Shown here piece after piece: positions 10,296 to 46,400 of a DNA stretch of 64,000 bases. The stretch comes from TPA_inf: Saccharomyces (Eukaryota): NCBI GenBank assembly GCA_000146045.2, contig BK006935.2, forward strand, positions 160,001 to 224,000. Reading direction: 5' to 3'. The notes beneath the pieces are model-generated. The model was given only the letters and a program-made list of their open reading frames with translations, was not told the origin of the DNA and did no database searches. The stretch's first letter is position 1. Each line of letters begins with the position of its first letter. Made by a program: the position numbers and the translations under genes.

Positions 10296-10395
10296 CGTGA
10301 TTTACATATACTACAAGTCGCCAGTGTAACTCCTCACTGAATATGATTCATACATACCCGTATGTATTAATGTATAAATGTTCTCAGAGCAAATT

Positions 10396-23474: not shown

Positions 23475-23769
23475 ACATCCGACTGCCATGCAATGTGCTT
23501 TTCTGGATCTCACTCATGATCATAATGGCCCTGTAAAAGGCTCGCACTATTATTATTATATCTTCACTATATATTATTTCGGAGGCTGTACCTATCAGTG
23601 AAAAAACGCCTCTAAAAATGAAAAAAAAAAAGAATATGAAAGGGGTTCTGAATTGCTAAAATATTTCGTCAAAGCTCAATTAGTATCATGATCAAGTCGT
23701 AATTCGAATCAGCATAACAACCTCCAAAACCATATAATAACCTTACACAAGACAAGATATCAATTCAAC

Positions 23770-24477
23770 ATGCAAACCCCTTCAGAAAATACCGACGTCA
23801 AGTTGGATACTCTCGACGAACCCAGTGCACATTTAATCGAGGAAAATGTGGCTCTTCCAGAGGATACATTCAATTCGTACTGGAGTTATATACTTAATGA
23901 AATCGCTCGTTGTAAACCGCTAATGATTATGTTCCTAATACCTGTGTGTTTGGTTTTATTGATTACGTTTTTTCATGATATCAAAGGTATCCTTGTGTTT
24001 TTAGTGATTTCTCTTATCCTCTCTATTATCATTTTATTGATCGGTATAACTGCCTTCGTGTCTGAGACCTTGAATAAGGGTTTCATAATTAAGCTTTTAG
24101 TAGAAGTCATTACACGTAAACCAGCAGTAGGGGGGAAGGAATGGAGAATAATCGCATATAATATGAACCAGTATCTGTTTGACCATGGGATATGGCATAC
24201 TCCGTATTACTTTTTTTGTGAACATAGGTGCCATAAATTTTTCAAAAGCCTTATCAAACAGACAAGGTCGAATGCACATTTGAGTTCACCAACGAACGGT
24301 GCAGAGAATACGCAGTCAAACACACCAGCAAAAGAGGTTTCAAATGAGATGGTAAAACCTTATATCTTTAGTTCTGATCCAGTTTTAGAAGCTTACCTTA
24401 TTAAAGCTGCGGAAATTCACAAAGAAGCTGAATTTGAGTATTGGAGAAAGCAATACCCAGAGGTTGATTTGCCTTAG
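23770..24477 (+). CDS. UIP3: DUP240 family integral membrane protein (Ulp1-interacting protein 3), 235 aa
   Basis: [50 protein letters not shown]…, two hydrophobic TM segments, [51 protein letters not shown] and a C-terminal [13 protein letters not shown]. This is the archetypal DUP240 member. Confidence 0.9.
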
Positions 24478-24891
24478 GGCCGAATTTTTGGTATTTATCT
24501 AGTATATTCTAATATAAAATGTACGAGCATCATTAACTTCAAGAACATTACGAAGCCCGCAATTAAGTGTCAGTCCATCTGGGTGTAAAAGTTATGTACG
24601 CTCGAAACAAATTTTATGTAGTTTACTTTAGATGCAAATGCTATTATATATTTTGCTTTATGATCCTCGGCTTGATGCTCGCCAACGTGAGATAGCTGGT
24701 CATCACAATAGATCAGCCGGGACGCTTTTCGATCACATCGAATCCCTTCGGGACGTTGCAACAATACGTGAAAAATGCCTCAAAAATAATAAATACAATG
24801 GTGAACAACGTTAAAAAAGCATAAAACAGCTGGCTATTTTGATCAGGATAACATCTATAAGTGCCATATTAAGGCAAGATATCAATTGACC

Positions 24892-25596
24892 ATGCAAACA
24901 CCTTCAGAAAATACCGACGTAAAGATGGATACTCTCGACGAACCCAGTGCACATTTAATCGAAGAGAATGTAGCTCTTCCCGAAGACACATTCAGTTCAC
25001 ATCTGAGTTATGTACTTTATGAAATTGCTCATTGTAAACCGATCATGTTTATGATCATCATAATCGTGAGTTTGATCTCATTGATTGTGCTTTTTCATGA
25101 TAACGACGGGTGCACTGTGATCTTAGTGATGTCCCTTATAGTAGCCTCCATGGCTTTAATGGTGGTTGCAGCATTCACATTCGGGAAAGCGATCACTGAA
25201 CAGGAGTTCATGATAAAGCTTTTAGTGGAGGTGATCGCACGCAAGCCTGCGGGGAAGGAATGGGGTACTGTCGCATATAATATGAACCAATATCTATTCA
25301 TGAAGAGACTATGGTATACCCCGTACTATTTCTATAGCGGCAAGAAGTGCCATGAGTTCTTCACCACTCTTATCAAGGAAGTGAATTCTGGTTCGCACTC
25401 GGATTCCTCATCGAATAGTGCCGAGGATACACAATCACCTGTCTCAGCAGGGAAGACTTCAAATGGTCTAAACAACTTTTATAGTATTAGATCAGACCCT
25501 ATTTTGATGGCATATGTTTTGAAGGCAACACAAATAGAAAAGGAGGCTCAAAGTGAATACTGGAGAAAGCAATATCCTGACGCTGATTTACCTTGA
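24892..25596 (+). CDS. YAR028W: DUP240 family integral membrane protein, 234 aa from MQTPSEN; an alternative ATG 6 nt upstream at 24886 gives MTMQ…
   Basis: A paralog of UIP3 with the same motif order ([20 protein letters not shown], two TM segments, [41 protein letters not shown]), arranged in tandem in the same orientation. Confidence 0.85.
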   Translation: MQTPSENTDVKMDTLDEPSAHLIEENVALPEDTFSSHLSYVLYEIAHCKPIMFMIIIIVSLISLIVLFHDNDGCTVILVMSLIVASMALMVVAAFTFGKAITEQEFMIKLLVEVIARKPAGKEWGTVAYNMNQYLFMKRLWYTPYYFYSGKKCHEFFTTLIKEVNSGSHSDSSSNSAEDTQSPVSAGKTSNGLNNFYSIRSDPILMAYVLKATQIEKEAQSEYWRKQYPDADLP

Positions 25597-25949
25597 AGCG
25601 GAAGCATTTTATTCACCAAGTATACTTACTTTTCTTTAAAACGAGAACAAGAATCGAATTCAAGAACATCTCGAAGCCAGAATTGAGCATCATATATTCG
25701 AGCTGTACAAACATCATGGCCTACAACTATCGTATTTGTAAGTTTTTTTAGAGGTTTTCATATTTGTTTAATAAGGGTTCTGTCAGTTTTTGTCACATTC
25801 TATTGTTGCGCTTCGCATAATGCAGCCAAGAAAATCCAAACAATAGAAAAAGAAAAAAAGGATCTCAAAAAGGGTTTGGTGTTGTAGTTATAAGAATAAC
25901 TAGTGAATAAAAAAGCTGTTGTTTGGTCCGTATTACATTCGTCAAAAAT

Positions 25950-26545
25950 TTAGTACTCAAATCGTGTATGCAATCGCAACCACAAAATAAAAATATTAGA
26001 CTGGATGTGTTGAGTGGAGATGGTGCCAATTTAGTTGAGGGAAATGTGGTCCTTCCCAAAGACATGTTCAATTCGTACTTAAGTTATTCACTTTACGTGT
26101 TACGAGGGGGCTCATTGTAAGCCGATAATGATTATGTTCCTGGCATCTGTAATTTTGATTTCACTGACTAATTTCCGAGTATACCATCTCATGTCCCTTC
26201 TATCCTCTTTTTTCATCTCCGGGACAGACCGACAATAAAGCATCTAATATTAGGCTTTCGTTAGAGGTAAGCACACGCCAGCGTTCGGTGAAAGGGGAAT
26301 GAAACATTATCACGTACAAGATGAATAAATATCTATTTGACCATAAAATATGGAGTACTCCTTACTACTTTTATTGCGAAGAAGATTGCCACCGTCTTTT
26401 TCTAAGTTTTATTGAGGGAAGAACTTTCGAGAAGCCAACAAGCAACGCTGAGGAAAATGTACAGGAGACTGAAGCTGGCGAATCTTTCACATTAAATCCC
26501 GGAGAAGATTTTCAAAATTGCTTTCCAAGACAGCGGATATTGTAG
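25950..26545 (+). pseudogene. YAR029W: Decayed DUP240 gene copy. The N-terminal motif is present, the TM-encoding middle is deleted or frameshifted, and the C-terminal remnant ORF of 74 aa (26321-26545) corresponds to YAR029W
   Basis: The 25923-26120 frame encodes …LDVLSGDGANLVEGNVVLPKDMFNSYLSYSLYVL, which is the DUP240 N-terminal motif, and then breaks off. At 26125-26300 only fragments remain (…ISPGQTDNKASNIRLSLEVSTRQRSVKGE… resembles [17 protein letters not shown]). The 74-aa remnant MNKYLFDHKIWSTPYYFYCEEDCHRLFLSFIEGRTF… lacks TM segments. Confidence 0.7.
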
Positions 26546-26835
26546 AACAATCTCAAGTGAAGTATTGGCAAGATATTGGTGCAATTATTTGAAAGGAAGG
26601 AGAAATATTCTGACAGTACCTTGCTAGCAAAGGGATTTACCAATCCACTGACGCTAAAATGGGGTAGTAAATTAGATAAATTGCATTCTAACGTGACTTT
26701 ATATAGTGGGAAACAGATATGTAGCACACAAAACGGCATGATTATGCTTAATTGATTCCTATTTTTTAACGTAAATACTCTCCCAGAACGATCAGAAAAC
26801 TTAACCCGCAACCATCTTTGCTGTGCTAACAACTT

Positions 26836-27732
26836 ATGTCGCCTCAATACCATTTTTATTTTGTATCATTCCGGAACTTAGTATTGAATGAAAAATGCCT
26901 CCGAAGTAAAAAGCAGGTGATGAAAAGTTTCAATTGGTATAAGACAGATCGCTATTTTGATCCGCATAACATCCTTCAACACCATAGCAGAGCTATAGAG
27001 AAGACAAGATATAAACTGGGCATGCAAACATCTTCAGAAAGTACCGACGCCAAGTCGGATTTTCTCGACGAACCCAGTGCATATTTAATTGAGAAAAATG
27101 TGGCTCTTCCCAAGGACATATTCGGTTCGTACTTAAGTTATTGGATATATGAAGTTACTCGTCATAAAGCGGCAGTAATTTTGCTCGTACTTATTGTGAC
27201 TTCAATTTTATTATTAGTGTTTTTTTATAATACGGAATTTTGCGTTGCCTTTGAGATACTATTGTTTTCCTTTTGCTTTCCAGGAACATGCATGGTTGTA
27301 ATTGCATTTAGTGAACCGATCGGTGATCGGGAATTTAAAGTTAAGCTTCTGATGGAAATTATCACACGTAAACCGGCGGTAAAGGGGAAAGAATGGAGGA
27401 CAATTACATACAAGATGAACCAGTATTTATTTGATCATGGGCTATGGGATACTCCCTACTACTTTTACCGTGATGAAGATTGCCACCGTTATTTTCTAAG
27501 TCTTATTAAGGGAAGAACTTTCAAGAAGCAAAAGGAATCGTCAGCCAGCAATGTTAAAGACGCACAATCAAATGACGAAACCGCTGGCACACCAAACGAA
27601 GCCGCTGAGTCTTCTAGTTTTAGTGCCGGACCGAACTTTATAAAGCTCCTCACCAAGGCAGCCGAAATCGAACAACAATTTCAAAAGGAATATTGGCGAC
27701 AAGAGTATCCTGGTGTCGATGAGTTTTTTTAG
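26836..27732 (+). CDS. PRM9: Pheromone-regulated DUP240 family membrane protein, 298 aa, with a 62-aa N-terminal extension before the family-typical MQTSSESTD… start
   Basis: A 298-aa ORF. Residues 63-298 align with the UIP3/MST28 motifs: LDEPSAYLIEKNVALPKDIFGSYLSYWIYEV, two TM segments, [42 protein letters not shown] and EYWRQEYPGVDEFF. Confidence 0.85.
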   Translation: MSPQYHFYFVSFRNLVLNEKCLRSKKQVMKSFNWYKTDRYFDPHNILQHHSRAIEKTRYKLGMQTSSESTDAKSDFLDEPSAYLIEKNVALPKDIFGSYLSYWIYEVTRHKAAVILLVLIVTSILLLVFFYNTEFCVAFEILLFSFCFPGTCMVVIAFSEPIGDREFKVKLLMEIITRKPAVKGKEWRTITYKMNQYLFDHGLWDTPYYFYRDEDCHRYFLSLIKGRTFKKQKESSASNVKDAQSNDETAGTPNEAAESSSFSAGPNFIKLLTKAAEIEQQFQKEYWRQEYPGVDEFF

Positions 27733-28106
27733 ACAGAAGACGGGAGACACTAGCACACAACTTTACCAGGCAAGGTATTTGACGCTAGCATGTGTCCAAT
27801 TCAGTGTCATTTATGATTTTTTGTAGTAGGATATAAATATATACAGCGCTCCAAATAGTGCGGTTGCCCCAAAAACACCACGGAACCTCATCTGTTCTCG
27901 TACTTTGTTGTGACAAAGTAGCTCACTGCCTTATTATCACATTTTCATTATGCAACGCTTCGGAAAATACGATGTTGAAAATGCCTCTAGAGATGAAAAA
28001 CAATCGTAAAAGGGTCCTGCGTAATTGAAACATTTGATCAGTATGCAGTGGCACAGAAACAACCAGGAATACTATAGTCATAGGCAATACAAGGTATATA
28101 TTGGCT

Positions 28107-28811
28107 ATGCAGACCCCTCCAGAAAGTACCGACGTCAAGTTAGATACACTTAACGAACCTAGTGCACATTTAATTGAGAAAAATGTGGCTCTTCCTAAGG
28201 ACATATTCCGTTCGTACTTGAGTTATTGGATCTATGAAATCGCTCGCTATACACCAGTCATGATTTTGTCCCTGGTAATAGGGGTTTTGGTTTTATTAAT
28301 TATATTTTTTAATGACAACGAAGCTTGTGTTTTCAATTCTGCAATATTTGCTTTTACTTCTCTTGTAGGTTTGTTAATAATATTAAGTGATGGTAATCCA
28401 AAGCTAGTCAGTCGTCGAAATTTTAGGACCGAGCTTTTAGTGGATGTCATCACACGTAAACCGGCGGTAGAAGGGAAAGAATGGAGGATCATCACATACA
28501 ACATGAACCAATATTTGTTTAATCATGGGCAATGGCATACTCCGTATTACTTTTACAGCGATGAGGATTGCTACCGTTATTTTCTACGCCTTGTTGAGGG
28601 AGTAACCCCCAAGAAGCAAACAGCCACGTCAATTGGCAATTCTCCGGTCACCGCTAAGCCTGAAGATGCCATCGAGTCAGCTTCTCCTAGTTCCAGACTG
28701 AATTATCAAAACTTTTTGCTCAAGGCAGCGGAGATCGAACGACAAGCTCAGGAAAATTACTGGCGAAGGCGGCATCCCAATATCGATGCGCTTCTTAAAA
28801 AGACGGAATAG
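28107..28811 (+). CDS. MST28: DUP240 family membrane protein (multicopy suppressor of sec21), 234 aa; an alternative ATG at 28101 gives MAMQ…
   Basis: [52 protein letters not shown]…, two TM segments, [36 protein letters not shown] and a C-terminal ENYWRRRHPNIDALLKKTE. Confidence 0.85.
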   Translation: MQTPPESTDVKLDTLNEPSAHLIEKNVALPKDIFRSYLSYWIYEIARYTPVMILSLVIGVLVLLIIFFNDNEACVFNSAIFAFTSLVGLLIILSDGNPKLVSRRNFRTELLVDVITRKPAVEGKEWRIITYNMNQYLFNHGQWHTPYYFYSDEDCYRYFLRLVEGVTPKKQTATSIGNSPVTAKPEDAIESASPSSRLNYQNFLLKAAEIERQAQENYWRRRHPNIDALLKKTE

Positions 28812-28929
28812 CTTAGAGACACTACCATACGTAAAGCGAACATAAACTAGAGTATGATATATAATCAGCACTAACTGGCCGGAAAACGGCCGAAGGAAGC
28901 CTCGAAAAGTCGATTCGTGTTGGACCCAT

Positions 28930-29220
28930 TTGCTGAACAAAGTGGTTCATTGCCTACCTATTATGGTAGTAGTCGTGATAATCGTGTGGTTGGTTTTGTC
29001 AACGGTGCATTTGCATTTTCATGACAATAAACCTTGCGTTTTCGTTCTCGGGATATTACTTTCCCTCCACTTCTTTCGCCTCAATAGCTCCTATAAGCAT
29101 TCTCAGGGCGTATGTCGGTGATCGAGATTTCCAAGCAAGCTTTTAGTGGAAATCATCGCGCGCAAGCCAGCGGTAAAGGGAAAAGAACGGAGGACGATTA
29201 CATACAAGATGAACGAATAA
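28930..29220 (+). pseudogene. Frameshifted DUP240 fragment (TM region through …KLLVEIIARKPAVKGKERRTITYKMNE*). A further piece of the same relic lies beyond the delta at 29771-29830
   Basis: The 28930-29121 frame gives VHCLPIMVVVVIIVWLVLSTVHLHFHDNKPCVFVLGILLSLH, the DUP240 TM1/TM2 region. A frame switch follows, and then aagcttttagtggaaatcatcgcgcgcaagccagcggtaaagggaaaagaacggaggacgattacatacaagatgaacgaataa encodes KLLVEIIARKPAVKGKERRTITYKMNE*. After the delta, acc ccg tat tac ttt tac cgt gat gaa gat tgg cat cgt tac ttt cta encodes TPYYFYRDEDWHRYFL, the next family motif. Confidence 0.65.
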
Positions 29221-29757: not shown

Positions 29758-30192
29758 TCAGTAACACCCCACCCCGTATTACTTTTACCGTGATGAAGAT
29801 TGGCATCGTTACTTTCTAAACGTAGGACGTGCGGAATGACAAAACCATCAGCAGTGTCACGATCTCTCCAGTCACAATGGCAATCATGAGTGCATAGTCC
29901 AAAGTAAAGGGGCAAGGAAAAGCATGATTGAAAGGACTCCCCATCTGGACTCTATATGTCATCAGCGGCTAAAAAAAAGCATATAGCACAACATCAGCAT
30001 CAGCATCAGCACTAGAGTCATCGGCCCGGCGGTCCGCGGTCATCCCCGCGGACTTTCCGTCCGCCCGGCGGGCTGTATCAGCGTCAACTGGAACGCGCAT
30101 ATATATACAAGACACACATAACATAGAAGCACACCCACGACAATAACCACACGACAATAACCACACCCGCCCACCCCTCCTTTCCGTATACA

Positions 30193-32256
30193 ATGCCAAA
30201 CTTAAAGAGACTACCCATCCCGCCACTGCAGGACACGCTCAACCGCTACCTGGCACGCGTGGAACCCCTGCAGGACGAGCGCCAAAACCGCCGTACGCGC
30301 CGCACTGTGCTCTCCGCAGAAAACCTGGACGCATTGAACACGCTGCACGAGCGGCTGCTAGAATACGACGCACGGCTCGCGGAAAGCAACCCAGAGTCCT
30401 CATACATCGAGCAGTTCTGGTATGACGCGTACTTGCTATATGATGCAACTGTCGTTCTCAACGTCAACCCGTACTTCCAACTGCAGGACGACCCAACCAT
30501 CAAAGACACACCAGAGACGGCGGCACAGGGCCCCTATGGCGCACACACGGTGCAGGTTCGTCGTGCCGCACGACTCACCACCTCTATTCTCAAGTTCATC
30601 CGCCAGATTCGCCACGGCACACTCCGCACAGACACTGTGCGCGGCAAAACGCCGCTGTCGATGGACCAGTATGAGCGGCTATTCGGCTCCAGTAGAATCC
30701 CTCCGGGTCCCGGCGAGCCCTCTTGCCACTTGCAAACAGACGCCACGTCGCATCACGTGGTGGCGATGTATCGTGGCCAGTTCTACTGGTTCGACGTGCT
30801 GGACACACGCAACGAGCCCATCTTCGCCACCCCAGAACAACTGGAGTGGAACCTCTACTCGATCATCATGGACGCGGAATCCGCCGGAAGCGGATCCGCG
30901 CCCTTTGGCGTGTTCACCACAGAGTCGCGCCGGGTGTGGTCCAACATCAGGGACTATCTGTTCCATGCGGACGACTGCACCAACTGGCGCAATCTCAAGC
31001 TGATCGACTCCGCGCTGTTCGTGGTCTGTCTCGACGACGTGGCGTTTGCCGCCGATCAGCAGGACGAGCTCACGCGTTCGATGCTGTGCGGGACTTCTAC
31101 CATCAATCTCGACCCGCACCAACACCAGCCGCCATTGAACGTGCAGACAGGCACCTGTCTCAACCGCTGGTACGACAAGTTACAACTGATCGTGACCAAG
31201 AACGGTAAGGCGGGCATCAACTTCGAACACACCGGTGTGGACGGCCACACTGTGCTGCGGCTCGCCACAGACATCTACACAGACTCGATCCTGAGCTTCG
31301 CACGCGGTGTCACCAAGAACGTCGTCGACATCTTTAGCGACGACGATGGAAAACCATCGTCGTCGTCGTTGGCCTCGGCGGCTCACTCCGCCAACTTGAT
31401 CACCATCCCTCGTAAACTGGAATGGCGCACTGACAATTTCCTGCAATCGTCGCTGCACTTTGCCGAGACGCGCATCTCGGACTTGATCTCGCAATACGAG
31501 TTTGTTAATCTTGACTTCTCCAACTACGGCGCGTCCCATATCAAGACAGTGTTCAAGTGCTCGCCAGACGCCTTCGTGCAGCAGGTGTTCCAGGTCGCAT
31601 ACTTCGCGTTGTACGGTCGCTTCGAGACCGTGTACGAGCCTGCCATGACCAAGGCGTTCCAAAACGGCCGCACAGAGGCCATCCGCTCCGTCACGGGCCA
31701 ATCGAAGCTCTTTGTCAAGTCACTACTGGACCAGGATGCCTCGGACGCCACCAAAATTCAGCTCTTGCACGACGCCTGTACGGCGCACTCGCAAATCACA
31801 AGGGAATGCTCCCAGGGGCTCGGCCAGGACCGTCACTTGTATGCGCTCTACTGCCTCTGGAACCAATGGTACAAGGACAAGTTGGAGCTCCCACCCATCT
31901 TCCGCGACAAGTCCTGGACTACCATGCAGAACAACGTCTTGAGCACCTCCAACTGCGGTAACCCCTGCCTCAAGAGCTTCGGGTTCGGGCCTGTCACCGC
32001 CAACGGCTTCGGCATCGGCTACATCATCAGAGACCACTCCGTCTCTGTGGTGGTGTCCTCAAGGCATCGCCAGACTGCTCGGTTTGCGTCGCTCATGGAA
32101 AAGTCGCTGCTGGAGATCGACCGCATCTTCAAACGGCAGCAAGCTCGCGCAGCAAAACCCGCTGCCAGGACCACTGCTAGCGCCAACACCAAATCAGAAG
32201 ACATGAAATACCTGTTGTCCGGCTACGATTACTTCGACGTGAGCGTGTCCGGTTGA
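30193..32256 (+). CDS. YAT1: Carnitine O-acetyltransferase of the outer mitochondrial membrane, 687 aa; the gene is conspicuously GC-rich
   Basis: A 687-aa ORF with carnitine/choline acyltransferase family motifs (…LPIPPLQDTLNRYL…, EHTGVDGHTVLRL with the catalytic His, and a C-terminal …GFGIGYII…). By eye the composition is roughly 55-60% G+C against about 36-40% in neighbouring genes. Confidence 0.9.
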   Translation: MPNLKRLPIPPLQDTLNRYLARVEPLQDERQNRRTRRTVLSAENLDALNTLHERLLEYDARLAESNPESSYIEQFWYDAYLLYDATVVLNVNPYFQLQDDPTIKDTPETAAQGPYGAHTVQVRRAARLTTSILKFIRQIRHGTLRTDTVRGKTPLSMDQYERLFGSSRIPPGPGEPSCHLQTDATSHHVVAMYRGQFYWFDVLDTRNEPIFATPEQLEWNLYSIIMDAESAGSGSAPFGVFTTESRRVWSNIRDYLFHADDCTNWRNLKLIDSALFVVCLDDVAFAADQQDELTRSMLCGTSTINLDPHQHQPPLNVQTGTCLNRWYDKLQLIVTKNGKAGINFEHTGVDGHTVLRLATDIYTDSILSFARGVTKNVVDIFSDDDGKPSSSSLASAAHSANLITIPRKLEWRTDNFLQSSLHFAETRISDLISQYEFVNLDFSNYGASHIKTVFKCSPDAFVQQVFQVAYFALYGRFETVYEPAMTKAFQNGRTEAIRSVTGQSKLFVKSLLDQDASDATKIQLLHDACTAHSQITRECSQGLGQDRHLYALYCLWNQWYKDKLELPPIFRDKSWTTMQNNVLSTSNCGNPCLKSFGFGPVTANGFGIGYIIRDHSVSVVVSSRHRQTARFASLMEKSLLEIDRIFKRQQARAAKPAARTTASANTKSEDMKYLLSGYDYFDVSVSG

Positions 32257-32291
32257 GTTTATGCTGAGTTTTTGCGCATCAATATTATTTT

Positions 32292-32331
32292 TACTACTAC
32301 TACTACTACTACTACTACTACATACTATTAA
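32292..32331. repeat. (TAC)n trinucleotide microsatellite, about 13 units, in the YAT1 3' flank
   Basis: The sequence reads ttactactactactactactactactactactacatactatta. Confidence 0.9.
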
Positions 32332-32618
32332 ATATACTAAATAAGAGGAAAACGCTTTGGAAGTGACTGGCGCCGCCGCTGGCTACTATAATAGCAGCGA
32401 CTGTAATTTAATCTCATCCCGTCGTTTGGATTACCTCTTTTACTCGCCGAGCGAACGTGCACCAAAAAGGGAAAGGAAAAAAAGAAAAAAAAAGGAAAAA
32501 GGAAACTCAAAACTTGGATAAATAGAAGCACTCAAACTAAATTAAACTGCCAAAAAAAAAAAAAATAAAAAGGGAAAAGTTTAAACATCAAAGTACACCT
32601 TTCACCCCTCCACACACC

Positions 32619-35600
32619 ATGGAACAACCTGATCTATCGTCTGTGGCCATCAGTAAGCCGCTGCTGAAGTTGAAACTTCTCGACGCCCTTCGCCAGGGAA
32701 GTTTCCCCAACCTACAAGATCTCCTAAAGAAACAATTCCAGCCGCTAGACGACCCAAACGTCCAACAAGTGCTCCATCTCATGCTCCACTATGCCGTGCA
32801 AGTCGCCCCCATGGCTGTCATAAAGGAAATCGTCCATCATTGGGTCTCAACTACAAACACCACTTTTCTAAACATCCATCTTGATCTAAACGAACGGGAC
32901 TCCAACGGCAACACCCCATTGCACATCGCCGCCTACCAGTCCCGCGGTGATATCGTAGCCTTCCTCCTGGACCAACCAACCATCAACGACTGCGTGCTCA
33001 ACAACTCCCACTTGCAGGCCATCGAAATGTGCAAGAACCTAAACATCGCGCAGATGATGCAGGTGAAACGCTCCACATACGTTGCAGAGACCGCCCAGGA
33101 ATTCAGAACAGCTTTTAACAACAGGGACTTCGGCCACCTAGAATCTATCCTCTCCAGCCCTCGAAACGCAGAACTGCTCGACATCAACGGTATGGACCCG
33201 GAGACTGGCGATACCGTTCTGCACGAATTCGTCAAGAAAAGAGACGTCATCATGTGCCGTTGGTTGCTTGAACACGGTGCTGACCCCTTCAAGAGAGACC
33301 GCAAGGGCAAACTGCCCATCGAGCTCGTTAGGAAAGTCAATGAAAACGACACCGCCACCAACACCAAGATCGCCATCGACATCGAACTGAAAAAACTATT
33401 GGAAAGGGCCACCAGGGAGCAAAGTGTCATCGACGTCACAAACAACAACTTGCACGAGGCCCCCACTTACAAAGGCTACCTGAAAAAATGGACCAACTTC
33501 GCTCAAGGCTACAAATTGCGTTGGTTCATCCTTAGTAGCGATGGGAAACTATCCTACTACATCGATCAGGCCGACACTAAGAATGCCTGCAGGGGCTCCC
33601 TAAACATGTCTTCGTGCTCTCTGCATTTGGATTCGTCTGAAAAGTTGAAATTCGAAATTATCGGCGGTAACAACGGTGTTATCAGGTGGCATTTAAAGGG
33701 GAACCACCCCATCGAGACAAATAGATGGGTTTGGGCCATCCAGGGCGCCATAAGATACGCAAAGGACAGAGAAATTTTGCTGCACAATGGCCCCTATTCG
33801 CCTTCTCTGGCCTTAAGCCATGGCTTGTCATCCAAAGTGTCCAATAAAGAAAACTTGCATGCAACTTCAAAACGGTTGACCAAGAGCCCGCATCTGTCCA
33901 AATCCACACTGACACAAAACGATCACGATAATGACGATGACAGCACTAACAACAACAACAACAAAAGTAATAATGATTATGACGATAATAATAATAATAA
34001 TAATAATGACGATGATGATTATGATGATGATGATGAAAGTAGACCCCTCATAGAACCATTACCGTTGATTTCATCCAGAAGCCAAAGCTTAAGCGAAATC
34101 ACTCCCGGTCCACATTCTAGGAAGTCTACAGTCTCGTCTACAAGGGCAGCCGATATACCATCAGATGATGAGGGTTACTCTGAGGACGATTCTGATGACG
34201 ACGGTAACTCCTCTTACACAATGGAAAACGGCGGTGAAAACGATGGCGACGAAGATCTAAATGCCATTTATGGTCCCTATATTCAAAAACTACACATGCT
34301 ACAAAGATCCATTTCCATCGAGTTGGCATCTTTGAACGAATTGCTGCAAGATAAACAACAACACGATGAGTACTGGAACACCGTCAACACTTCTATTGAA
34401 ACCGTCAGCGAATTTTTCGACAAATTAAATCGGTTGACCTCTCAAAGGGAAAAAAGAATGATTGCCCAAATGACCAAGCAACGGGATGTTAACAATGTTT
34501 GGATTCAATCGGTAAAAGATCTGGAAATGGAACTGGTTGATAAAGACGAAAAATTGGTTGCCTTGGATAAAGAACGGAAAAATCTGAAAAAAATGCTTCA
34601 AAAAAAATTGAACAATCAACCACAGGTTGAAACTGAGGCTAATGAAGAATCCGATGATGCAAATTCAATGATAAAAGGATCCCAAGAATCAACAAATACC
34701 CTTGAGGAAATCGTAAAATTTATCGAAGCAACAAAGGAAAGTGATGAGGATTCTGACGCCGACGAATTTTTCGACGCAGAAGAAGCTGCTTCCGACAAAA
34801 AAGCCAATGATTCGGAAGACTTAACCACAAACAAGGAGACTCCAGCTAATGCGAAACCACAAGAAGAAGCTCCTGAAGACGAGAGCCTTATTGTGATCAG
34901 TTCTCCACAGGTGGAAAAGAAGAACCAACTATTAAAAGAGGGATCATTCGTCGGATATGAAGACCCAGTGAGAACCAAACTGGCTTTAGACGAAGATAAT
35001 CGTCCCAAGATTGGTCTCTGGTCTGTTTTAAAGTCTATGGTCGGTCAAGACTTAACCAAACTAACTCTACCGGTATCGTTCAATGAGCCAACATCCTTAC
35101 TACAGAGAGTATCTGAAGATATTGAGTATTCTCATATTCTTGACCAAGCTGCCACTTTTGAAGACTCCTCTTTAAGAATGCTATATGTAGCTGCCTTTAC
35201 TGCATCAATGTACGCATCTACCACTAACAGAGTGTCTAAACCATTCAACCCCTTACTCGGTGAAACTTTTGAATATGCCAGAACTGATGGTCAGTACCGA
35301 TTCTTCACCGAACAAGTCTCTCACCACCCACCTATCTCTGCTACTTGGACAGAATCGCCCAAATGGGATTTTTACGGTGAATGTAATGTTGATTCGTCAT
35401 TCAATGGGCGCACGTTCGCCGTGCAACATTTAGGATTATGGTACATTACTATCCGGCCTGATCATAATATTAGTGTTCCCGAGGAAACTTATTCCTGGAA
35501 AAAACCAAATAACACTGTTATCGGTATTTTAATGGGGAAACCACAAGTAGACAACAGTGGGGACGTCAAAGTCACAAACCATACCACAGGCGACTATTGT

Positions 35601-36185
35601 ATGCTGCATTACAAAGCCCATGGCTGGACCTCAGCCGGTGCATATGAAGTCAGAGGTGAAGTATTCAACAAGGACGATAAAAAATTATGGGTTCTTGGTG
35701 GGCATTGGAATGATTCCATTTACGGGAAAAAAGTAACTGCTAGAGGCGGAGAACTGACATTAGACAGAATAAAAACGGCAAATTCTGCCACGGGAGGACC
35801 AAAACTAGATGGGTCTAAGTTTCTGATATGGAAAGCAAATGAAAGGCCTTCAGTGCCATTTAATTTAACGTCGTTTGCATTGACTTTGAATGCTTTGCCA
35901 CCCCACTTGATACCATATTTAGCACCCACAGATAGTCGTTTAAGGCCCGATCAAAGGGCTATGGAAAATGGTGAATACGATAAAGCTGCCGCGGAAAAGC
36001 ATCGTGTTGAAGTAAAACAAAGGGCAGCAAAAAAAGAAAGGGAACAAAAAGGAGAAGAATACAGACCTAAGTGGTTTGTCCAGGAGGAGCACCCCGTTAC
36101 CAAAAGTCTATACTGGAAATTTAATGGAGAGTATTGGAACAAAAGAAAAAATCATGACTTTAAAGATTGTGCTGATATTTTCTAA
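32619..36185 (+). CDS. SWH1: Oxysterol-binding protein homolog with N-terminal ankyrin repeats, a PH domain, an FFAT motif and a C-terminal OSBP-related (ORD) domain, 1188 aa
   Basis: Ankyrin repeats (NGNTPLHIAAYQSRGDIVAFLL; GDTVLHEFVKKRDVIMCRWLLEHGADPF). A PH domain (YKGYLKKWTNFAQGYKLRWFILSSDGKLSYY). An FFAT motif at about 34761-34781 (DEFFDAEE). The OSBP signature EQVSHHPPISA. A poly-Asn/Asp tract at about 33937-34035. Confidence 0.9.
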   Translation: MEQPDLSSVAISKPLLKLKLLDALRQGSFPNLQDLLKKQFQPLDDPNVQQVLHLMLHYAVQVAPMAVIKEIVHHWVSTTNTTFLNIHLDLNERDSNGNTPLHIAAYQSRGDIVAFLLDQPTINDCVLNNSHLQAIEMCKNLNIAQMMQVKRSTYVAETAQEFRTAFNNRDFGHLESILSSPRNAELLDINGMDPETGDTVLHEFVKKRDVIMCRWLLEHGADPFKRDRKGKLPIELVRKVNENDTATNTKIAIDIELKKLLERATREQSVIDVTNNNLHEAPTYKGYLKKWTNFAQGYKLRWFILSSDGKLSYYIDQADTKNACRGSLNMSSCSLHLDSSEKLKFEIIGGNNGVIRWHLKGNHPIETNRWVWAIQGAIRYAKDREILLHNGPYSPSLALSHGLSSKVSNKENLHATSKRLTKSPHLSKSTLTQNDHDNDDDSTNNNNNKSNNDYDDNNNNNNNDDDDYDDDDESRPLIEPLPLISSRSQSLSEITPGPHSRKSTVSSTRAADIPSDDEGYSEDDSDDDGNSSYTMENGGENDGDEDLNAIYGPYIQKLHMLQRSISIELASLNELLQDKQQHDEYWNTVNTSIETVSEFFDKLNRLTSQREKRMIAQMTKQRDVNNVWIQSVKDLEMELVDKDEKLVALDKERKNLKKMLQKKLNNQPQVETEANEESDDANSMIKGSQESTNTLEEIVKFIEATKESDEDSDADEFFDAEEAASDKKANDSEDLTTNKETPANAKPQEEAPEDESLIVISSPQVEKKNQLLKEGSFVGYEDPVRTKLALDEDNRPKIGLWSVLKSMVGQDLTKLTLPVSFNEPTSLLQRVSEDIEYSHILDQAATFEDSSLRMLYVAAFTASMYASTTNRVSKPFNPLLGETFEYARTDGQYRFFTEQVSHHPPISATWTESPKWDFYGECNVDSSFNGRTFAVQHLGLWYITIRPDHNISVPEETYSWKKPNNTVIGILMGKPQVDNSGDVKVTNHTTGDYCMLHYKAHGWTSAGAYEVRGEVFNKDDKKLWVLGGHWNDSIYGKKVTARGGELTLDRIKTANSATGGPKLDGSKFLIWKANERPSVPFNLTSFALTLNALPPHLIPYLAPTDSRLRPDQRAMENGEYDKAAAEKHRVEVKQRAAKKEREQKGEEYRPKWFVQEEHPVTKSLYWKFNGEYWNKRKNHDFKDCADIF

Positions 36186-43402: not shown

Positions 43403-46400
43403 ATGACAATGCCTCATCGCTATATGTTTTTGGCAGTCTTTACACTTCTGGCACTAACTAGTGTGGCCTCAGGAGCCACAGAGGCGTGCTTACCAGCAGG
43501 CCAGAGGAAAAGTGGGATGAATATAAATTTTTACCAGTATTCATTGAAAGATTCCTCCACATATTCGAATGCAGCATATATGGCTTATGGATATGCCTCA
43601 AAAACCAAACTAGGTTCTGTCGGAGGACAAACTGATATCTCGATTGATTATAATATTCCCTGTGTTAGTTCATCAGGCACATTTCCTTGTCCTCAAGAAG
43701 ATTCCTATGGAAACTGGGGATGCAAAGGAATGGGTGCTTGTTCTAATAGTCAAGGAATTGCATACTGGAGTACTGATTTATTTGGTTTCTATACTACCCC
43801 AACAAACGTAACCCTAGAAATGACAGGTTATTTTTTACCACCACAGACGGGTTCTTACACATTCAAGTTTGCTACAGTTGACGACTCTGCAATTCTATCA
43901 GTAGGTGGTGCAACCGCGTTCAACTGTTGTGCTCAACAGCAACCGCCGATCACATCAACGAACTTTACCATTGACGGTATCAAGCCATGGGGTGGAAGTT
44001 TGCCACCTAATATCGAAGGAACCGTCTATATGTACGCTGGCTACTATTATCCAATGAAGGTTGTTTACTCGAACGCTGTTTCTTGGGGTACACTTCCAAT
44101 TAGTGTGACACTTCCAGATGGTACCACTGTAAGTGATGACTTCGAAGGGTACGTCTATTCCTTTGACGATGACCTAAGTCAATCTAACTGTACTGTCCCT
44201 GACCCTTCAAATTATGCTGTCAGTACCACTACAACTACAACGGAACCATGGACCGGTACTTTCACTTCTACATCTACTGAAATGACCACCGTCACCGGTA
44301 CCAACGGCGTTCCAACTGACGAAACCGTCATTGTCATCAGAACTCCAACAACTGCTAGCACCATCATAACTACAACTGAGCCATGGAACAGCACTTTTAC
44401 CTCTACTTCTACCGAATTGACCACAGTCACTGGCACCAATGGTGTACGAACTGACGAAACCATCATTGTAATCAGAACACCAACAACAGCCACTACTGCC
44501 ATAACTACAACTGAGCCATGGAACAGCACTTTTACCTCTACTTCTACCGAATTGACCACAGTCACCGGTACCAATGGTTTGCCAACTGATGAGACCATCA
44601 TTGTCATCAGAACACCAACAACAGCCACTACTGCCATGACTACAACTCAGCCATGGAACGACACTTTTACCTCTACTTCTACCGAATTGACCACAGTCAC
44701 CGGTACCAATGGTTTGCCAACTGATGAGACCATCATTGTCATCAGAACACCAACAACAGCCACTACTGCCATGACTACAACTCAGCCATGGAACGACACT
44801 TTTACCTCTACTTCTACCGAATTGACCACAGTCACCGGTACCAATGGTTTGCCAACTGATGAGACCATCATTGTCATCAGAACACCAACAACAGCCACTA
44901 CTGCCATGACTACAACTCAGCCATGGAACGACACTTTTACCTCTACATCCACTGAAATCACCACCGTCACCGGTACCAATGGTTTGCCAACTGATGAGAC
45001 CATCATTGTCATCAGAACACCAACAACAGCCACTACTGCCATGACTACACCTCAGCCATGGAACGACACTTTTACCTCTACATCCACTGAAATGACCACC
45101 GTCACCGGTACCAACGGTTTGCCAACTGATGAAACCATCATTGTCATCAGAACACCAACAACAGCCACTACTGCCATAACTACAACTGAGCCATGGAACA
45201 GCACTTTTACCTCTACATCCACTGAAATGACCACCGTCACCGGTACCAACGGTTTGCCAACTGATGAAACCATCATTGTCATCAGAACACCAACAACAGC
45301 CACTACTGCCATAACTACAACTCAGCCATGGAACGACACTTTTACCTCTACATCCACTGAAATGACCACCGTCACCGGTACCAACGGTTTGCCAACTGAT
45401 GAAACCATCATTGTCATCAGAACACCAACAACAGCCACTACTGCCATGACTACAACTCAGCCATGGAACGACACTTTTACCTCTACATCCACTGAAATCA
45501 CCACCGTCACCGGTACCACCGGTTTGCCAACTGATGAGACCATCATTGTCATCAGAACACCAACAACAGCCACTACTGCCATGACTACAACTCAGCCATG
45601 GAACGACACTTTTACCTCTACATCCACTGAAATGACCACCGTCACCGGTACCAACGGCGTTCCAACTGACGAAACCGTCATTGTCATCAGAACTCCAACT
45701 AGTGAAGGTCTAATCAGCACCACCACTGAACCATGGACTGGTACTTTCACCTCTACATCCACTGAGATGACCACCGTCACCGGTACTAACGGTCAACCAA
45801 CTGACGAAACCGTGATTGTTATCAGAACTCCAACCAGTGAAGGTTTGGTTACAACCACCACTGAACCATGGACTGGTACTTTTACTTCTACATCTACTGA
45901 AATGACCACCATTACTGGAACCAACGGCGTTCCAACTGACGAAACCGTCATTGTCATCAGAACTCCAACCAGTGAAGGTCTAATCAGCACCACCACTGAA
46001 CCATGGACTGGTACTTTTACTTCTACATCTACTGAAATGACCACCATTACTGGAACCAATGGTCAACCAACTGACGAAACCGTTATTGTTATCAGAACTC
46101 CAACTAGTGAAGGTCTAATCAGCACTACAACGGAACCATGGACCGGTACTTTCACTTCTACATCTACTGAAATGACGCACGTCACCGGTACCAACGGCGT
46201 TCCAACTGACGAAACCGTCATTGTCATCAGAACTCCAACCAGTGAAGGTCTAATCAGCACCACCACTGAACCATGGACTGGCACTTTCACTTCGACTTCC
46301 ACTGAGGTTACCACCATCACTGGAACCAACGGTCAACCAACTGACGAAACTGTGATTGTTATCAGAACTCCAACCAGTGAAGGTCTAATCAGCACCACCA

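What the first reader, a model, noticed from the sequence alone, without database searches (positions are those of the whole stretch)
29940..32260. YAT1 is a sharply bounded GC-rich island in an AT-rich chromosome arm
From about 29940 (ggcccggcggtccgcggtcatccccgcgg…) to the YAT1 stop, the DNA is visibly GC-rich, including GC-rich third positions (CTG, CGC, GCC and GAC codons dominate). That is why both strands carry many long spurious ORFs in the track (30239-30448, 30422-31003, 30679-31125, 31180-31701 and others), since stop codons are AT-rich. Flanking genes (MST28, SWH1) have ordinary yeast composition. The island could reflect GC-biased gene conversion at a meiotic recombination hotspot, unusual codon or expression constraints, or foreign origin.
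Basis: seen in the sequence. Interest (0 to 1): 0.5.

Follow-up and report, generated by a model that had tools for sequence, protein, structure and literature searches.

The report
Ancient GC-rich island over yeast YAT1
The carnitine acetyltransferase gene YAT1, and the first third of its neighbour SWH1, form a real GC-rich island that every Saccharomyces species examined shares at this one chromosome I locus; it is inherited rather than foreign, and is best explained by a long-lived, recombination-linked bias favouring G/C alleles.

Summary
YAT1 (30193-32256) has GC 0.58 and GC3 0.77, in a window of GC 0.39 whose other genes have GC3 0.33-0.47. Two details need correction. The quoted GC-rich string starts at 30023, not 29940, and is a conserved zinc-cluster/CSRE promoter block. 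The island also does not stop at the YAT1 stop codon. After a 362-bp AT-rich promoter gap it resumes for about 1.1 kb into SWH1 (GC3 0.61-0.70).

Foreign origin is rejected. The order CDC15-YAT1-OSH is conserved in pre-duplication yeasts, and the protein tree follows the species tree.

The island is shared by six Saccharomyces species (GC3 0.70-0.91). It is absent from pre-duplication orthologues, from Candida glabrata, and from the duplicate YAT1 copy that S. uvarum and S. eubayanus keep on chromosome IV (GC3 0.37, same genome).

The favoured codons (CGC, CTG, GGC) are not translationally optimal.

Polarised substitutions show AT-to-GC changes raised and GC-to-AT changes lowered. A single fixation-bias parameter fits both shifts: B about 1.7 in S. 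cerevisiae, 2-3 in S. uvarum/eubayanus, and about 0 in S. paradoxus.

The best explanation is GC-biased gene conversion from conserved promoter hotspots. No recombination map was available, so this step is inferred. It is an extreme member of a known kind of feature.

The parts
30023..30083 (+). Conserved GC-rich upstream activating block of the YAT1 promoter. It holds CGG/CCG triplets and a CSRE-type Cat8/Sip4 site at 30057-30067.
   Evidence: The sequence was read. The block aligns across S. cerevisiae, S. paradoxus, S. mikatae, S. arboricola and S. uvarum while its flanks do not. The match at 30057-30067 is the only match to CCRTYSRNCCG in the 64-kb window, with 0.67 expected by chance, so the match alone is not significant. 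YAT1 is Cat8- and Gsm1-dependent (PMC11432098, PMC4634231).
30099..30110 (+). TATA-like element (ATATATATACAA). It is followed by an A/C-rich leader that contains a 14-bp tandem repeat at 30136-30166.
   Evidence: (GCGCATATATATACAA is conserved in 4-5 species).
30193..32256 (+). YAT1 coding sequence (687 aa carnitine O-acetyltransferase), the core of the GC-rich island. GC is 0.580 and GC3 is 0.767.
   Evidence: Pfam PF00755, E=5e-184. Composition. The protein is 100% identical to an S. cerevisiae protein cluster.
32257..32618 (.). AT-rich gap inside the island, made up of the YAT1 terminator and the SWH1 promoter. It contains a (TAC)~12 microsatellite at 32292-32327 and poly(A)/A-rich tracts at 32464-32571. 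It is the inferred site of a promoter recombination hotspot.
   Evidence: GC is 0.38/0.34 in its two halves. No W>S excess is seen here (5:5 in cer, 8:13 in par). The hotspot role is inference only.
32619..33800 (+). The 5' third of SWH1/OSH1 (ankyrin and PH domain region), which continues the island. GC3 is 0.61-0.70 over five 66-codon segments, falling to 0.58 and then 0.47.
   Evidence: All six Saccharomyces species show the same plateau and the same drop point. OSH2 and the pre-duplication OSH genes show no such gradient.
33801..36185 (+). The remainder of SWH1, with ordinary composition (GC3 0.30-0.45). It served as the internal control for the substitution analyses.
30422..32037 (.). Cluster of six spurious ORFs of at least 100 aa in alternative frames of YAT1: 30422-31003 (+), 30679-31125 (-), 30723-31208 (+), 31180-31701 (-), 31557-31961 (+) and 31723-32037 (-). 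A seventh lies in the GC-rich part of SWH1 (32933-33466, -). They are by-products of the scarcity of stop codons.
   Evidence: No Pfam hits at E<=0.1. Alternative-frame stop density is 2.6 against 6-7 per 100 codons.

Best explanation
The window is S. cerevisiae chromosome I, right arm. YAT1 sits in its ancestral position between CDC15 and SWH1. After Saccharomyces split from the Nakaseomyces lineage, and before the genus radiated, a roughly 3.8-kb segment began to fix G/C alleles preferentially. That segment is YAT1 plus the first ~1.1 kb of SWH1.

The most likely cause is GC-biased gene conversion. Meiotic double-strand breaks form in the two nucleosome-free promoters that bracket YAT1: its own CSRE/TATA promoter and the poly(A)-rich SWH1 promoter. 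Conversion tracts of about 1-2 kb sweep both coding regions, and mismatch repair slightly favours G/C. Saccharomyces hotspots stay at promoters for millions of years, so the small bias accumulates.

The expected and observed results are a drive of third codon positions to 70-91% GC, an upward pull on first and second positions (more Gly/Ala/Arg/Pro, K>R replacements), removal of stop codons from the other frames, and hence the spurious ORFs.

The promoters themselves stay AT-rich in S. cerevisiae and S. paradoxus. I infer that this is because their A/T tracts, TATA and terminator signals are constrained.

The bias is still acting in S. cerevisiae (B about 1.7), is stronger in S. uvarum and S. 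eubayanus (B about 2-3), and has lapsed in S. paradoxus, where the island is decaying.

Shown here: the composition, its age and locus specificity, vertical descent, non-optimal codons, and the biased substitution pattern. Inferred: that recombination (hotspots, conversion) is the source of the bias.
For: 1. The locus is native. CDC15-YAT1-OSH adjacency is found in T. delbrueckii, K. lactis and C. glabrata, and the window has ADE1-KIN3-CDC15 ... YAT1-SWH1. The sister region TSC13-CDC7-ERP3-YAT1b-OSH2-RPN4 survives in S. eubayanus and S. uvarum.

2. The island is locus-specific and genus-wide. Chromosome I YAT1 GC3 is 0.767 (cer), 0.704 (par), 0.739 (mik), 0.857 (arb), 0.914 (uva) and 0.893 (eub). 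The chromosome IV ohnologue has 0.372 in both S. uvarum and S. eubayanus; for S. uvarum that is the same assembly as the 0.914 copy. T. delbrueckii has 0.433, K. lactis 0.430, K. africana 0.298 and C. glabrata 0.418, each close to its neighbours.

3. The effect is not gene-specific. The first ~330 codons of SWH1 have GC3 0.6-0.8 in all six species and then fall to about 0.35. The S. uvarum and S. eubayanus intergenic DNA is also raised, at 0.41-0.54.

4. It is not translational selection. Fop is 0.49. Arg is CGC 24 against AGA 3, Leu is CTG+CTC 46 against TTG 13, and Gly is GGC 19 against GGT 7.

5. Protein composition is dragged along. GARP residues make up 0.236-0.277, against 0.16-0.21 in other orthologues. 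At conserved sites, 13 changes are GC-raising and 5 GC-lowering, with K>R six times (p=0.096). S. uvarum and S. eubayanus carry poly-Gly/Ala loop insertions.

6. Polarised synonymous substitutions, YAT1 against the SWH1 3' control:
- cer: W>S x1.99 (p=0.004), S>W x0.36 (p=2.5e-5)
- uva: x3.4 and x0.23
- eub: x2.8 and x0.33
- par: x0.99 and x0.91
The two independent ratios give concordant B in every lineage: 1.6/1.8, 3.3/2.5, 2.6/1.9 and 0.0/0.2. The implied equilibrium GC3 values (0.77, 0.92, 0.88) match the observed GC3.

7. Literature. GC3 peaks are conserved among Saccharomyces and are highest in S. bayanus (PMC2997560). GC3 falls with distance from gene ends, as expected for promoter DSBs and tracts of about 1 kb (PMC3020949). 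gBGC has been measured in yeast tetrads (PMC3649680).
Against: 1. No DSB, crossover or Spo11-oligo data for this locus could be consulted, and no paper in the library names YAT1 or SWH1 as a hotspot.

2. The measured yeast bias is small: b=0.013 per converted SNP and 1.3e-4 genome-wide. Outcrossing is also rare (PMC3649680). A local B of 2-3 therefore needs an exceptionally hot and persistent hotspot.

3. The YAT1-SWH1 intergenic DNA of S. cerevisiae and S. paradoxus is not GC-rich (0.28-0.38) and shows no W>S excess (5:5 and 8:13). The DNA at -900 to -300 upstream of YAT1 is AT-rich. In those species the island therefore respects coding boundaries.

4. The SWH1 profile is a plateau followed by a step, not the simple exponential decay of the published model. 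Exponential fits were unstable.

5. Ancestral states were inferred by parsimony, counts are tens per branch, and one genome was used per species.
Confidence: 0.6

Rival explanations
1. Selection on GC content of the DNA or RNA itself. In this reading the GC-rich coding DNA is maintained because it does something at this locus, for example high nucleosome occupancy, mRNA structure or stability through non-optimal codons, suppression of cryptic initiation or termination, or a chromatin role in cis. Recombination would not be the cause.
For: In S. cerevisiae and S. paradoxus the enrichment stops at coding boundaries, and the intergenic DNA shows no W>S bias. The plateau in SWH1 has a conserved, step-like end in six species. 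A fixation bias of B about 2-3 is formally indistinguishable from selection. The measured gBGC in yeast is weak.
Against: Two functionally unrelated genes share the island. The duplicate YAT1 in the same genome, and all orthologues outside the genus, function with GC3 0.30-0.43; this includes the Cat8/Sip4-regulated K. lactis gene. The favoured codons are rare and non-optimal. The bias changes protein composition and adds Gly/Ala runs. S. paradoxus has lost the bias with no sign of gene decay.
Confidence: 0.15
2. A local GC-biased mutation process, in which the input of mutations rather than their fixation is skewed over these 3.8 kb. Possible sources would be recombination-associated or transcription-associated mutagenesis.
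For: Substitution counts alone cannot separate mutation bias from fixation bias. The upstream 300 bp in the S. cerevisiae lineage also shows more W>S than S>W (18:12), against 2:8 in S. paradoxus.
Against: Yeast mutation is AT-biased in general (established knowledge, not tested here). The rise in W>S and the fall in S>W match one fixation parameter in each of four lineages, which a mutation bias would not be required to do. The 362-bp intergenic gap inside the island is unaffected.
Confidence: 0.1
3. Foreign or xenologous origin. A GC-rich segment from another yeast would have replaced YAT1 and the SWH1 5' end by homologous recombination in the Saccharomyces ancestor, and has been decaying since.
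For: The island has a block-like shape with conserved edges. There is net loss of GC in the S. paradoxus, S. mikatae and cer+par stem branches. Ancestral GC3 at conserved sites is inferred at about 0.88.
Against: Gene order and orientation are exactly ancestral. The chromosome I clade is monophyletic (100%), follows the species tree, sits inside Saccharomycetaceae, and does not join GC-rich lineages such as K. naganishii, Ashbya or Lachancea, including after Dayhoff recoding. Passive decay cannot explain equilibrium GC3 of 0.77-0.92 on the cer, uva and eub branches, given that about 30% of third positions differ between species. The protein is more conserved than its ohnologue, with 24 changes at deeply conserved sites against 53.
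Confidence: 0.04
4. Translational codon adaptation or an expression constraint specific to carnitine acetyltransferase.
For: YAT1 is a strongly regulated, ethanol-induced gene. Within four-fold families, C-ending codons are preferred over the rarest G-ending ones (CGC over CGG, GGC over GGG).
Against: Fop is 0.49, the same as for weakly expressed neighbours. The optimal codons AGA, GGT, TTG, CAA, GAA and CCA are avoided. The orthologues and the ohnologue lack the bias. SWH1 shares it.
Confidence: 0.03

Closest known systems
Conserved GC3 peaks of Saccharomyces chromosomes attributed to gBGC (Sharp & Lloyd 1993; Bradnam 1999; Birdsell 2002; Lynch et al. 2010, PMC2997560)
   Same: Local GC3 is elevated in an AT-rich genome, its position is conserved among Saccharomyces species, and values are highest in the S. 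bayanus/uvarum lineage and lower in S. cerevisiae.
   Different: The published peaks are 15-gene moving averages of about 45-50% GC3, against a median of 36%. This one is a single gene plus one third of its neighbour (3.8 kb), at 70-91% GC3 and with step-like edges. I found no paper in the library that describes it.
Within-gene GC3 decay from promoter DSB sites (Marsolier-Kergoat 2011, PMC3020949)
   Same: GC3 is highest next to promoter-containing intergenic regions and falls into the gene over about 1 kb. SWH1 shows this, and YAT1 lies within reach of two promoters.
   Different: The amplitude is far larger than the genome average (about +0.35-0.55, against fitted amplitudes of about 0.1). 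The profile is a plateau with a step rather than an exponential.
gBGC-driven GC3 or 'biased clustered substitution' hotspots in mammals and birds (Duret & Galtier 2009)
   Same: There are clustered W>S substitutions. They affect synonymous and non-synonymous sites alike, regardless of function, and with possibly maladaptive amino-acid drift.
   Different: Mammalian hotspots are short-lived. This island has persisted through the whole radiation of a genus, in line with the promoter-anchored hotspots of yeast.
Horizontally transferred genes in S. cerevisiae, identified through atypical composition
   Same: One gene has a composition strikingly unlike its surroundings.
   Different: Synteny, phylogeny and the presence of an ohnologue all show vertical descent.

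Membership tests
Carnitine/choline O-acyltransferase (YAT1 orthologue) | Full-length match to Pfam PF00755 and close identity to annotated Yat1 proteins | tested here: met
   E=5e-184 over residues 7-636. Identity is 96% to S. paradoxus YAT1 and 99-100% to S. cerevisiae Yat1p.
Carnitine/choline O-acyltransferase (YAT1 orthologue) | Ancestral syntenic position (CDC15 - YAT1 - OSH1/SWH1) | tested here: met
   compared with the window gene order.
gBGC-driven GC3 peak at a recombination hotspot | Local excess of GC3 over neighbouring genes | tested here: met
   0.767 against 0.33-0.47. z is about 5.8 for total GC.
gBGC-driven GC3 peak at a recombination hotspot | W>S substitutions raised and S>W lowered relative to a linked control, consistent with a fixation bias | tested here: met
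   Significant in cer, uva and eub; absent in par.
gBGC-driven GC3 peak at a recombination hotspot | The effect is regional and blind to function, reaching neighbouring genes and non-coding DNA | tested here: inconclusive
   The SWH1 5' third is affected in six species. Intergenic DNA is raised in uva, eub and mik but not in cer, par or arb, and there is no W>S excess in the cer and par intergenic region.
gBGC-driven GC3 peak at a recombination hotspot | Coincidence with a measured meiotic DSB or crossover hotspot | not testable with these tools
   No Spo11-oligo or tetrad map is available. Literature searches found nothing for this locus.
gBGC-driven GC3 peak at a recombination hotspot | Derived W>S alleles segregate at higher frequency than S>W alleles | not tested
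   No population DNA sample was accessible.
Horizontally acquired gene | Phylogenetic placement outside the host clade, or loss of synteny | tested here: not met
   monophyletic, congruent with the species tree, inside Saccharomycetaceae; synteny.
Translationally selected codon bias | Enrichment of the host's optimal codons | tested here: not met
   Fop is 0.49 and the rare codons CGC, CTG and GGC dominate. The list of optimal codons was taken from memory of Sharp & Cowe 1991.
CSRE (Cat8/Sip4) promoter element | Match to CCRTYSRNCCG / CGGN6GG upstream of a Cat8-dependent gene, conserved in relatives | tested here: met
   30057-30067 is the only match in the window, and the block is conserved in five species. 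Cat8 dependence comes from PMC11432098 and PMC4634231. Binding itself was not tested.

The most novel reading that the evidence does not exclude
The island may not be a passive by-product. It could be a selected, self-reinforcing cis element on the smallest chromosome. In this reading the GC-rich coding DNA, flanked by strongly nucleosome-free promoters, boosts DSB formation, which would help to secure the obligate crossover on chromosome I. gBGC then feeds back to raise GC further. That would account for three things: the extreme amplitude despite weak measured gBGC and rare sex, the step-like edges conserved in six species, and persistence across the genus. S. paradoxus would be a natural loss-of-function lineage.
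Probability: 0.07. Interest if true: 0.8.

Novelty: new member of a known kind. Interest (0 to 1): 0.42.

Why it matters
The locus offers a compact natural experiment on what drives base composition in yeast.
- S. uvarum and S. eubayanus keep two YAT1 ohnologues encoding the same kind of enzyme in one genome, at 37% and about 90% GC3.
- There is a graded series across six species.
- One lineage, S. paradoxus, appears to have lost the bias.

The apparent fixation bias (B about 2-3) is large for an organism whose measured conversion bias is small and whose outcrossing is rare. Confronting this locus with Spo11-oligo maps from several species would be a sharp test of whether gBGC alone can build such an island, or whether selection or a GC-recombination feedback is needed.

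On the practical side, the result explains the cluster of spurious ORFs over YAT1. It also warns against inferring horizontal transfer from composition alone.

Tried and rejected
1. Literature. Ten full-text searches found no paper describing YAT1/YAR035W as a GC outlier or as a recombination hotspot. The search was badly framed and wasted. Gerton 2000 and Pan 2011 are not held under the ids I tried. The only YAR035W chromatin mention concerns H2B occupancy and does not bear on the question.

2. Exponential-decay fit of SWH1 GC3 against distance from the ATG. The parameters were unstable, with decay lengths of 2-55 kb and huge errors, because the profile is a plateau plus a step. I dropped it as a quantitative test.

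3. Direction of amino-acid replacements at deeply conserved sites. The result is only a trend (13 against 5, p=0.096).

4. Non-coding substitution test. Counts are too small. The 'downstream of SWH1' control aligned poorly, with 31% of columns identical, and was discarded.

5. The first tree attempt with Biopython BLOSUM distances timed out. I replaced it with Kimura-distance NJ and 200 bootstraps, plus Dayhoff-6 recoding. Deep nodes are weakly supported (20-60%), so I do not lean on the sister relationship to the Zygosaccharomyces/Torulaspora clade.

6. I suspected an N-terminal extension in the 732-aa S. uvarum protein. That was wrong: the start codon is homologous, and the extra length comes from internal Gly/Ala-rich and C-terminal insertions.

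7. I considered whether one parent of the hybrid whole-genome duplication was GC-rich. I rejected this because same-track neighbours (CDC15, KIN3, ADE1, SWH1 3') and the same-track C. glabrata YAT1 are ordinary.
Full report
**Identity of the region.** The ORF at 30193..32256 (+) encodes a 687-aa protein with a full-length Choline/Carnitine O-acyltransferase domain (PF00755, E=5e-184). It is 100% identical to a protein cluster from S. cerevisiae and 96% identical to S. paradoxus YAT1. Downstream, 32619..36185 (+) encodes an ankyrin + PH + oxysterol-binding protein, SWH1/OSH1. Upstream lie two DUP-family genes (26836-27732 and 28107-28811). Further left are ADE1-, KIN3- and CDC15-sized ORFs. The window is the right arm of S. 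cerevisiae chromosome I.

**Check of the observation.** The GC island is real and large.
- GC in 300-bp windows is 0.55-0.61 from 30000 to 32250, against 0.29-0.45 in the flanks.
- YAT1 has GC 0.580 and GC3 0.767. All other real genes of the window have GC3 0.33-0.47, and the window GC is 0.393.
- A YAT1-sized window reaches GC 0.581, whereas elsewhere the mean is 0.384, sd 0.034 and the maximum 0.471.
- They follow from a stop-codon density of 2.6 per 100 alternative-frame codons, against 6-7 in other genes.

Three corrections are needed.
1. The quoted string ggcccggcgg... begins at 30023, not about 29940.
2. That string is not the edge of a compositional domain. It is a 60-bp block of CGG/CCG triplets conserved in five species.
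   - It contains the window's only match to the CSRE consensus, at 30057-30067.
   - It is followed by a conserved TATA element. YAT1 is a Cat8/Gsm1 target (PMC11432098, PMC4634231).
3. SWH1 is not compositionally ordinary throughout. Its first five 66-codon segments have GC3 0.61-0.70 and the sixth 0.58. Values then fall to 0.47 and 0.30-0.45.

The island therefore spans about 30020-33800. It is interrupted by a 362-bp AT-rich terminator/promoter gap that holds a (TAC)n microsatellite and poly(A) tracts.

**Is it foreign? No.**
- The pre-duplication yeasts T. delbrueckii and K. lactis have ADE1-KIN3-CDC15-YAT1-OSH in the same order and orientation as the window. C. glabrata has CDC15-YAT1-OSH.
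- S. eubayanus and S. uvarum retain a second YAT1 between ERP3 and OSH2 on chromosome IV. Its context is TSC13-CDC7-ERP3-YAT1b-OSH2-RPN4-GPM2-GPD1. This is the sister region from the whole-genome duplication, so YAT1-SWH1 and YAT1b-OSH2 are an ohnologue pair of pairs.
- Both species carry both copies.
- In NJ trees the chromosome I proteins form a 100% clade that follows the species tree: ((cer,par),mik),arb),uva. The clade lies inside Saccharomycetaceae and does not attach to any GC-rich lineage, including after Dayhoff-6 recoding.
- Deep nodes in these trees are weakly supported.

**When and where did the island arise?**

| Copy | GC3 |
|---|---|
| S. cerevisiae chr I YAT1 | 0.767 |
| S. paradoxus chr I YAT1 | 0.704 |
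| S. mikatae chr I YAT1 | 0.739 |
| S. arboricola chr I YAT1 | 0.857 |
| S. uvarum chr I YAT1 | 0.914 |
| S. eubayanus chr I YAT1 | 0.893 |
| S. uvarum chr IV copy (same assembly) | 0.372 |
| S. eubayanus chr IV copy | 0.372 |
| OSH2 | 0.36 |
| T. delbrueckii YAT1 | 0.433 |
| K. lactis YAT1 | 0.430 |
| K. africana YAT1 | 0.298 |
| C. glabrata YAT1 | 0.418 |

- Neighbouring DUP genes in the Saccharomyces loci have GC3 0.41-0.48.
- All six species show the same SWH1 plateau, at 0.6-0.8 for about 330 codons.
- The four non-Saccharomyces values each match their neighbours.
- K. naganishii YAT1 is GC-rich (0.81), but so is its whole locus.
- C. glabrata shows only a modest rise at the 5' ends of the divergent CDC15 and YAT1 genes (0.52-0.65).

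The extreme island is thus a derived, locus-specific trait. It arose in the Saccharomyces stem lineage and has been kept since.

**What kind of force?**
- It is not translational selection.
  - Fop is 0.49, against 0.39-0.60 for the window's genes.
  - The codons used are rare ones:

    | Amino acid | Favoured rare codon(s) | Optimal codon |
    |---|---|---|
    | Arg | CGC 24 | AGA 3 |
    | Leu | CTG+CTC 46 | TTG 13 |
    | Gly | GGC 19 | GGT 7 |
- The bias also reaches GC1 and GC2 (0.55/0.42 against about 0.45/0.35).
- Amino-acid content is affected: GARP residues make up 0.24-0.28, against 0.16-0.21 in other orthologues.
- K>R replacements occur at conserved sites (13 GC-raising against 5 GC-lowering changes, p=0.096).
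- S. uvarum and S. eubayanus carry poly-Gly/Ala loop insertions, where S. paradoxus has a poly-Asn run.
- The protein is nonetheless well conserved, with 24 changes at deeply conserved sites against 53 in the chromosome IV copy.

I polarised synonymous third-position changes by parsimony and used the SWH1 3' part as a linked control.

| Lineage | W>S rate ratio | S>W rate ratio | B from W>S | B from S>W | Implied equilibrium GC3 |
|---|---|---|---|---|---|
| S. cerevisiae | x1.99 (p=0.004) | x0.36 (p=2.5e-5) | 1.6 | 1.8 | 0.77 |
| S. uvarum | x3.4 | x0.23 | 3.3 | 2.5 | 0.92 |
| S. eubayanus | x2.8 | x0.33 | 2.6 | 1.9 | 0.88 |
| S. paradoxus | x0.99 | x0.91 | about 0 | about 0 | 0.49 |

- In each lineage the two ratios give concordant values of a single fixation-bias parameter.
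- The implied equilibrium GC3 equals the observed GC3 in S. cerevisiae, S. uvarum and S. eubayanus.
- In S. paradoxus the bias is lost, and 12 W>S against 61 S>W changes show the island decaying. [quoted passage not shown]
- A stricter polarisation gave the same picture.
- The island is therefore actively maintained in most lineages and is not a relic. This also argues against an ancient transfer followed by passive decay.

**Mechanism.** The best-supported reading is GC-biased gene conversion from long-lived promoter hotspots on both sides of YAT1. Supporting literature:
- GC3 peaks are positionally conserved among Saccharomyces and are highest in S. bayanus (PMC2997560).
- GC3 declines with distance from promoter-bearing gene ends over about 1 kb (PMC3020949).
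- A GC transmission bias has been measured in yeast tetrads (PMC3649680).

The recombination step is inferred, because I could not consult any DSB or crossover map.

Points against:
- The measured bias is small (b=0.013 per converted site) and sex is rare, so B of 2-3 demands an unusually hot and persistent hotspot.
- In S. cerevisiae and S. paradoxus the intergenic gap is not GC-rich and shows no W>S excess (5:5 and 8:13). In contrast, the S. uvarum and S. eubayanus intergenic DNA is raised (0.41-0.54). The 300 bp upstream of YAT1 show 18:12 in S. cerevisiae against 2:8 in S. paradoxus.
- The SWH1 profile is a plateau with a step rather than an exponential.

Remaining rivals are selection on GC content itself (0.15), a local mutation bias (0.10), xenologous replacement (0.04) and codon adaptation (0.03).

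**Comparison with what is known, and verdict.** The phenomenon belongs to the known class of conserved Saccharomyces GC3 peaks. It is an extreme case at single-gene scale: 70-91% GC3, against a genome median of about 36% and published peaks of about 45-50%. It also has a built-in control, the AT-rich ohnologue, and a lineage that lost the bias. I found no description of it in the searchable literature, although older subscription papers on YAT1 or chromosome I may mention its GC content.
- Novelty: new member of a known kind.
- Interest: moderate (0.42). The value lies mainly in providing a clean test locus for gBGC against selection in yeast.

Noticed in passing
L003:10001-12145 (S. eubayanus chrIV); L011:6001-8139 (S. 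uvarum chrIV): S. eubayanus, S. uvarum and the S. pastorianus subgenome keep a second, AT-rich YAT1 ohnologue between ERP3 and OSH2. It is 64% identical to the window's Yat1 and has GC3 0.37. NCBI names it 'YAT1', although the syntenic orthologue of S. cerevisiae YAT1 is the chromosome I copy. From memory, S. cerevisiae has no gene at that chromosome IV position; this was not checked here.
   Followed up: partly
window 30023-30083, 30057-30067: A conserved GC-rich promoter block with CGG/CCG triplets and a CSRE-type site lies 126-136 bp upstream of the YAT1 ATG. It is the likely Cat8/Sip4/Gsm1 binding platform. In S. paradoxus and S. mikatae the site reads TCCATTTGCCCGG/TCCATTTGTCCGG.
   Followed up: partly
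L004 (S. paradoxus) versus window and L001/L012: S. paradoxus has apparently lost the GC-favouring bias at YAT1 (12 W>S against 61 S>W). It also carries a poly-Asn insertion (DDNNNNNNNDNK) in the same loop where S. uvarum and S. eubayanus carry Ala/Gly runs. Only one S. paradoxus genome was examined.
   Followed up: partly
window 12211-15135 (-), CDC15; L013:4583-7768 and 10001-10400 (C. glabrata): The 5' kilobase of CDC15 has mildly raised GC3 (0.42-0.58, against 0.36-0.45 further in). In C. glabrata the 5' ends of the divergent CDC15 and YAT1 genes are both raised (0.52-0.65). This may be a trace of an ancestral shared-promoter hotspot that the PAU/DUP240 insertions later separated from YAT1 in Saccharomyces.
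   Followed up: no
window 32292-32327 and 32464-32571: The YAT1-SWH1 intergenic region holds a (TAC)~12 microsatellite just after the YAT1 stop, and long A-rich/poly(A) tracts in the SWH1 promoter. A small GC patch (ggcgccgccgctggc, about 32368-32385) lies between them.
   Followed up: no
window 30136-30166: An exact 14-bp tandem duplication, CACGACAATAACCA x2.2, sits in the YAT1 leader. It is not conserved in the other species' alignments.
   Followed up: no
window 15136-29000; L001, L004, L005, L012: The DNA between CDC15 and YAT1 is an insertion zone relative to pre-duplication yeasts. It is about 15 kb in S. cerevisiae and holds DUP240-family genes and a tRNA-Ser at 22521-22604. The number of DUP genes differs between species (1 to 5 within 10 kb).
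   Followed up: no
L008 (K. naganishii): The whole TSC13-CDC7-ERP3-ADE1-YAT1-OSH locus of K. naganishii is GC-rich (GC3 0.67-0.85), whereas K. africana is very AT-rich (0.30-0.37). Composition therefore diverges widely across genomes within one genus-level group.
   Followed up: no
window 43403-48016 (+): A 1537-aa FLO1-like ORF has unusually high GC2 (0.62). Its alternative-frame open runs are very long, up to 500 codons, and are caused by internal repeats rather than by GC content.
   Followed up: no
window 30193-32256: S. cerevisiae strains differ slightly in Yat1 length (682-688 aa among clusters of 98-100% identity), which implies small in-frame indel polymorphisms in the loop regions.
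   Followed up: no
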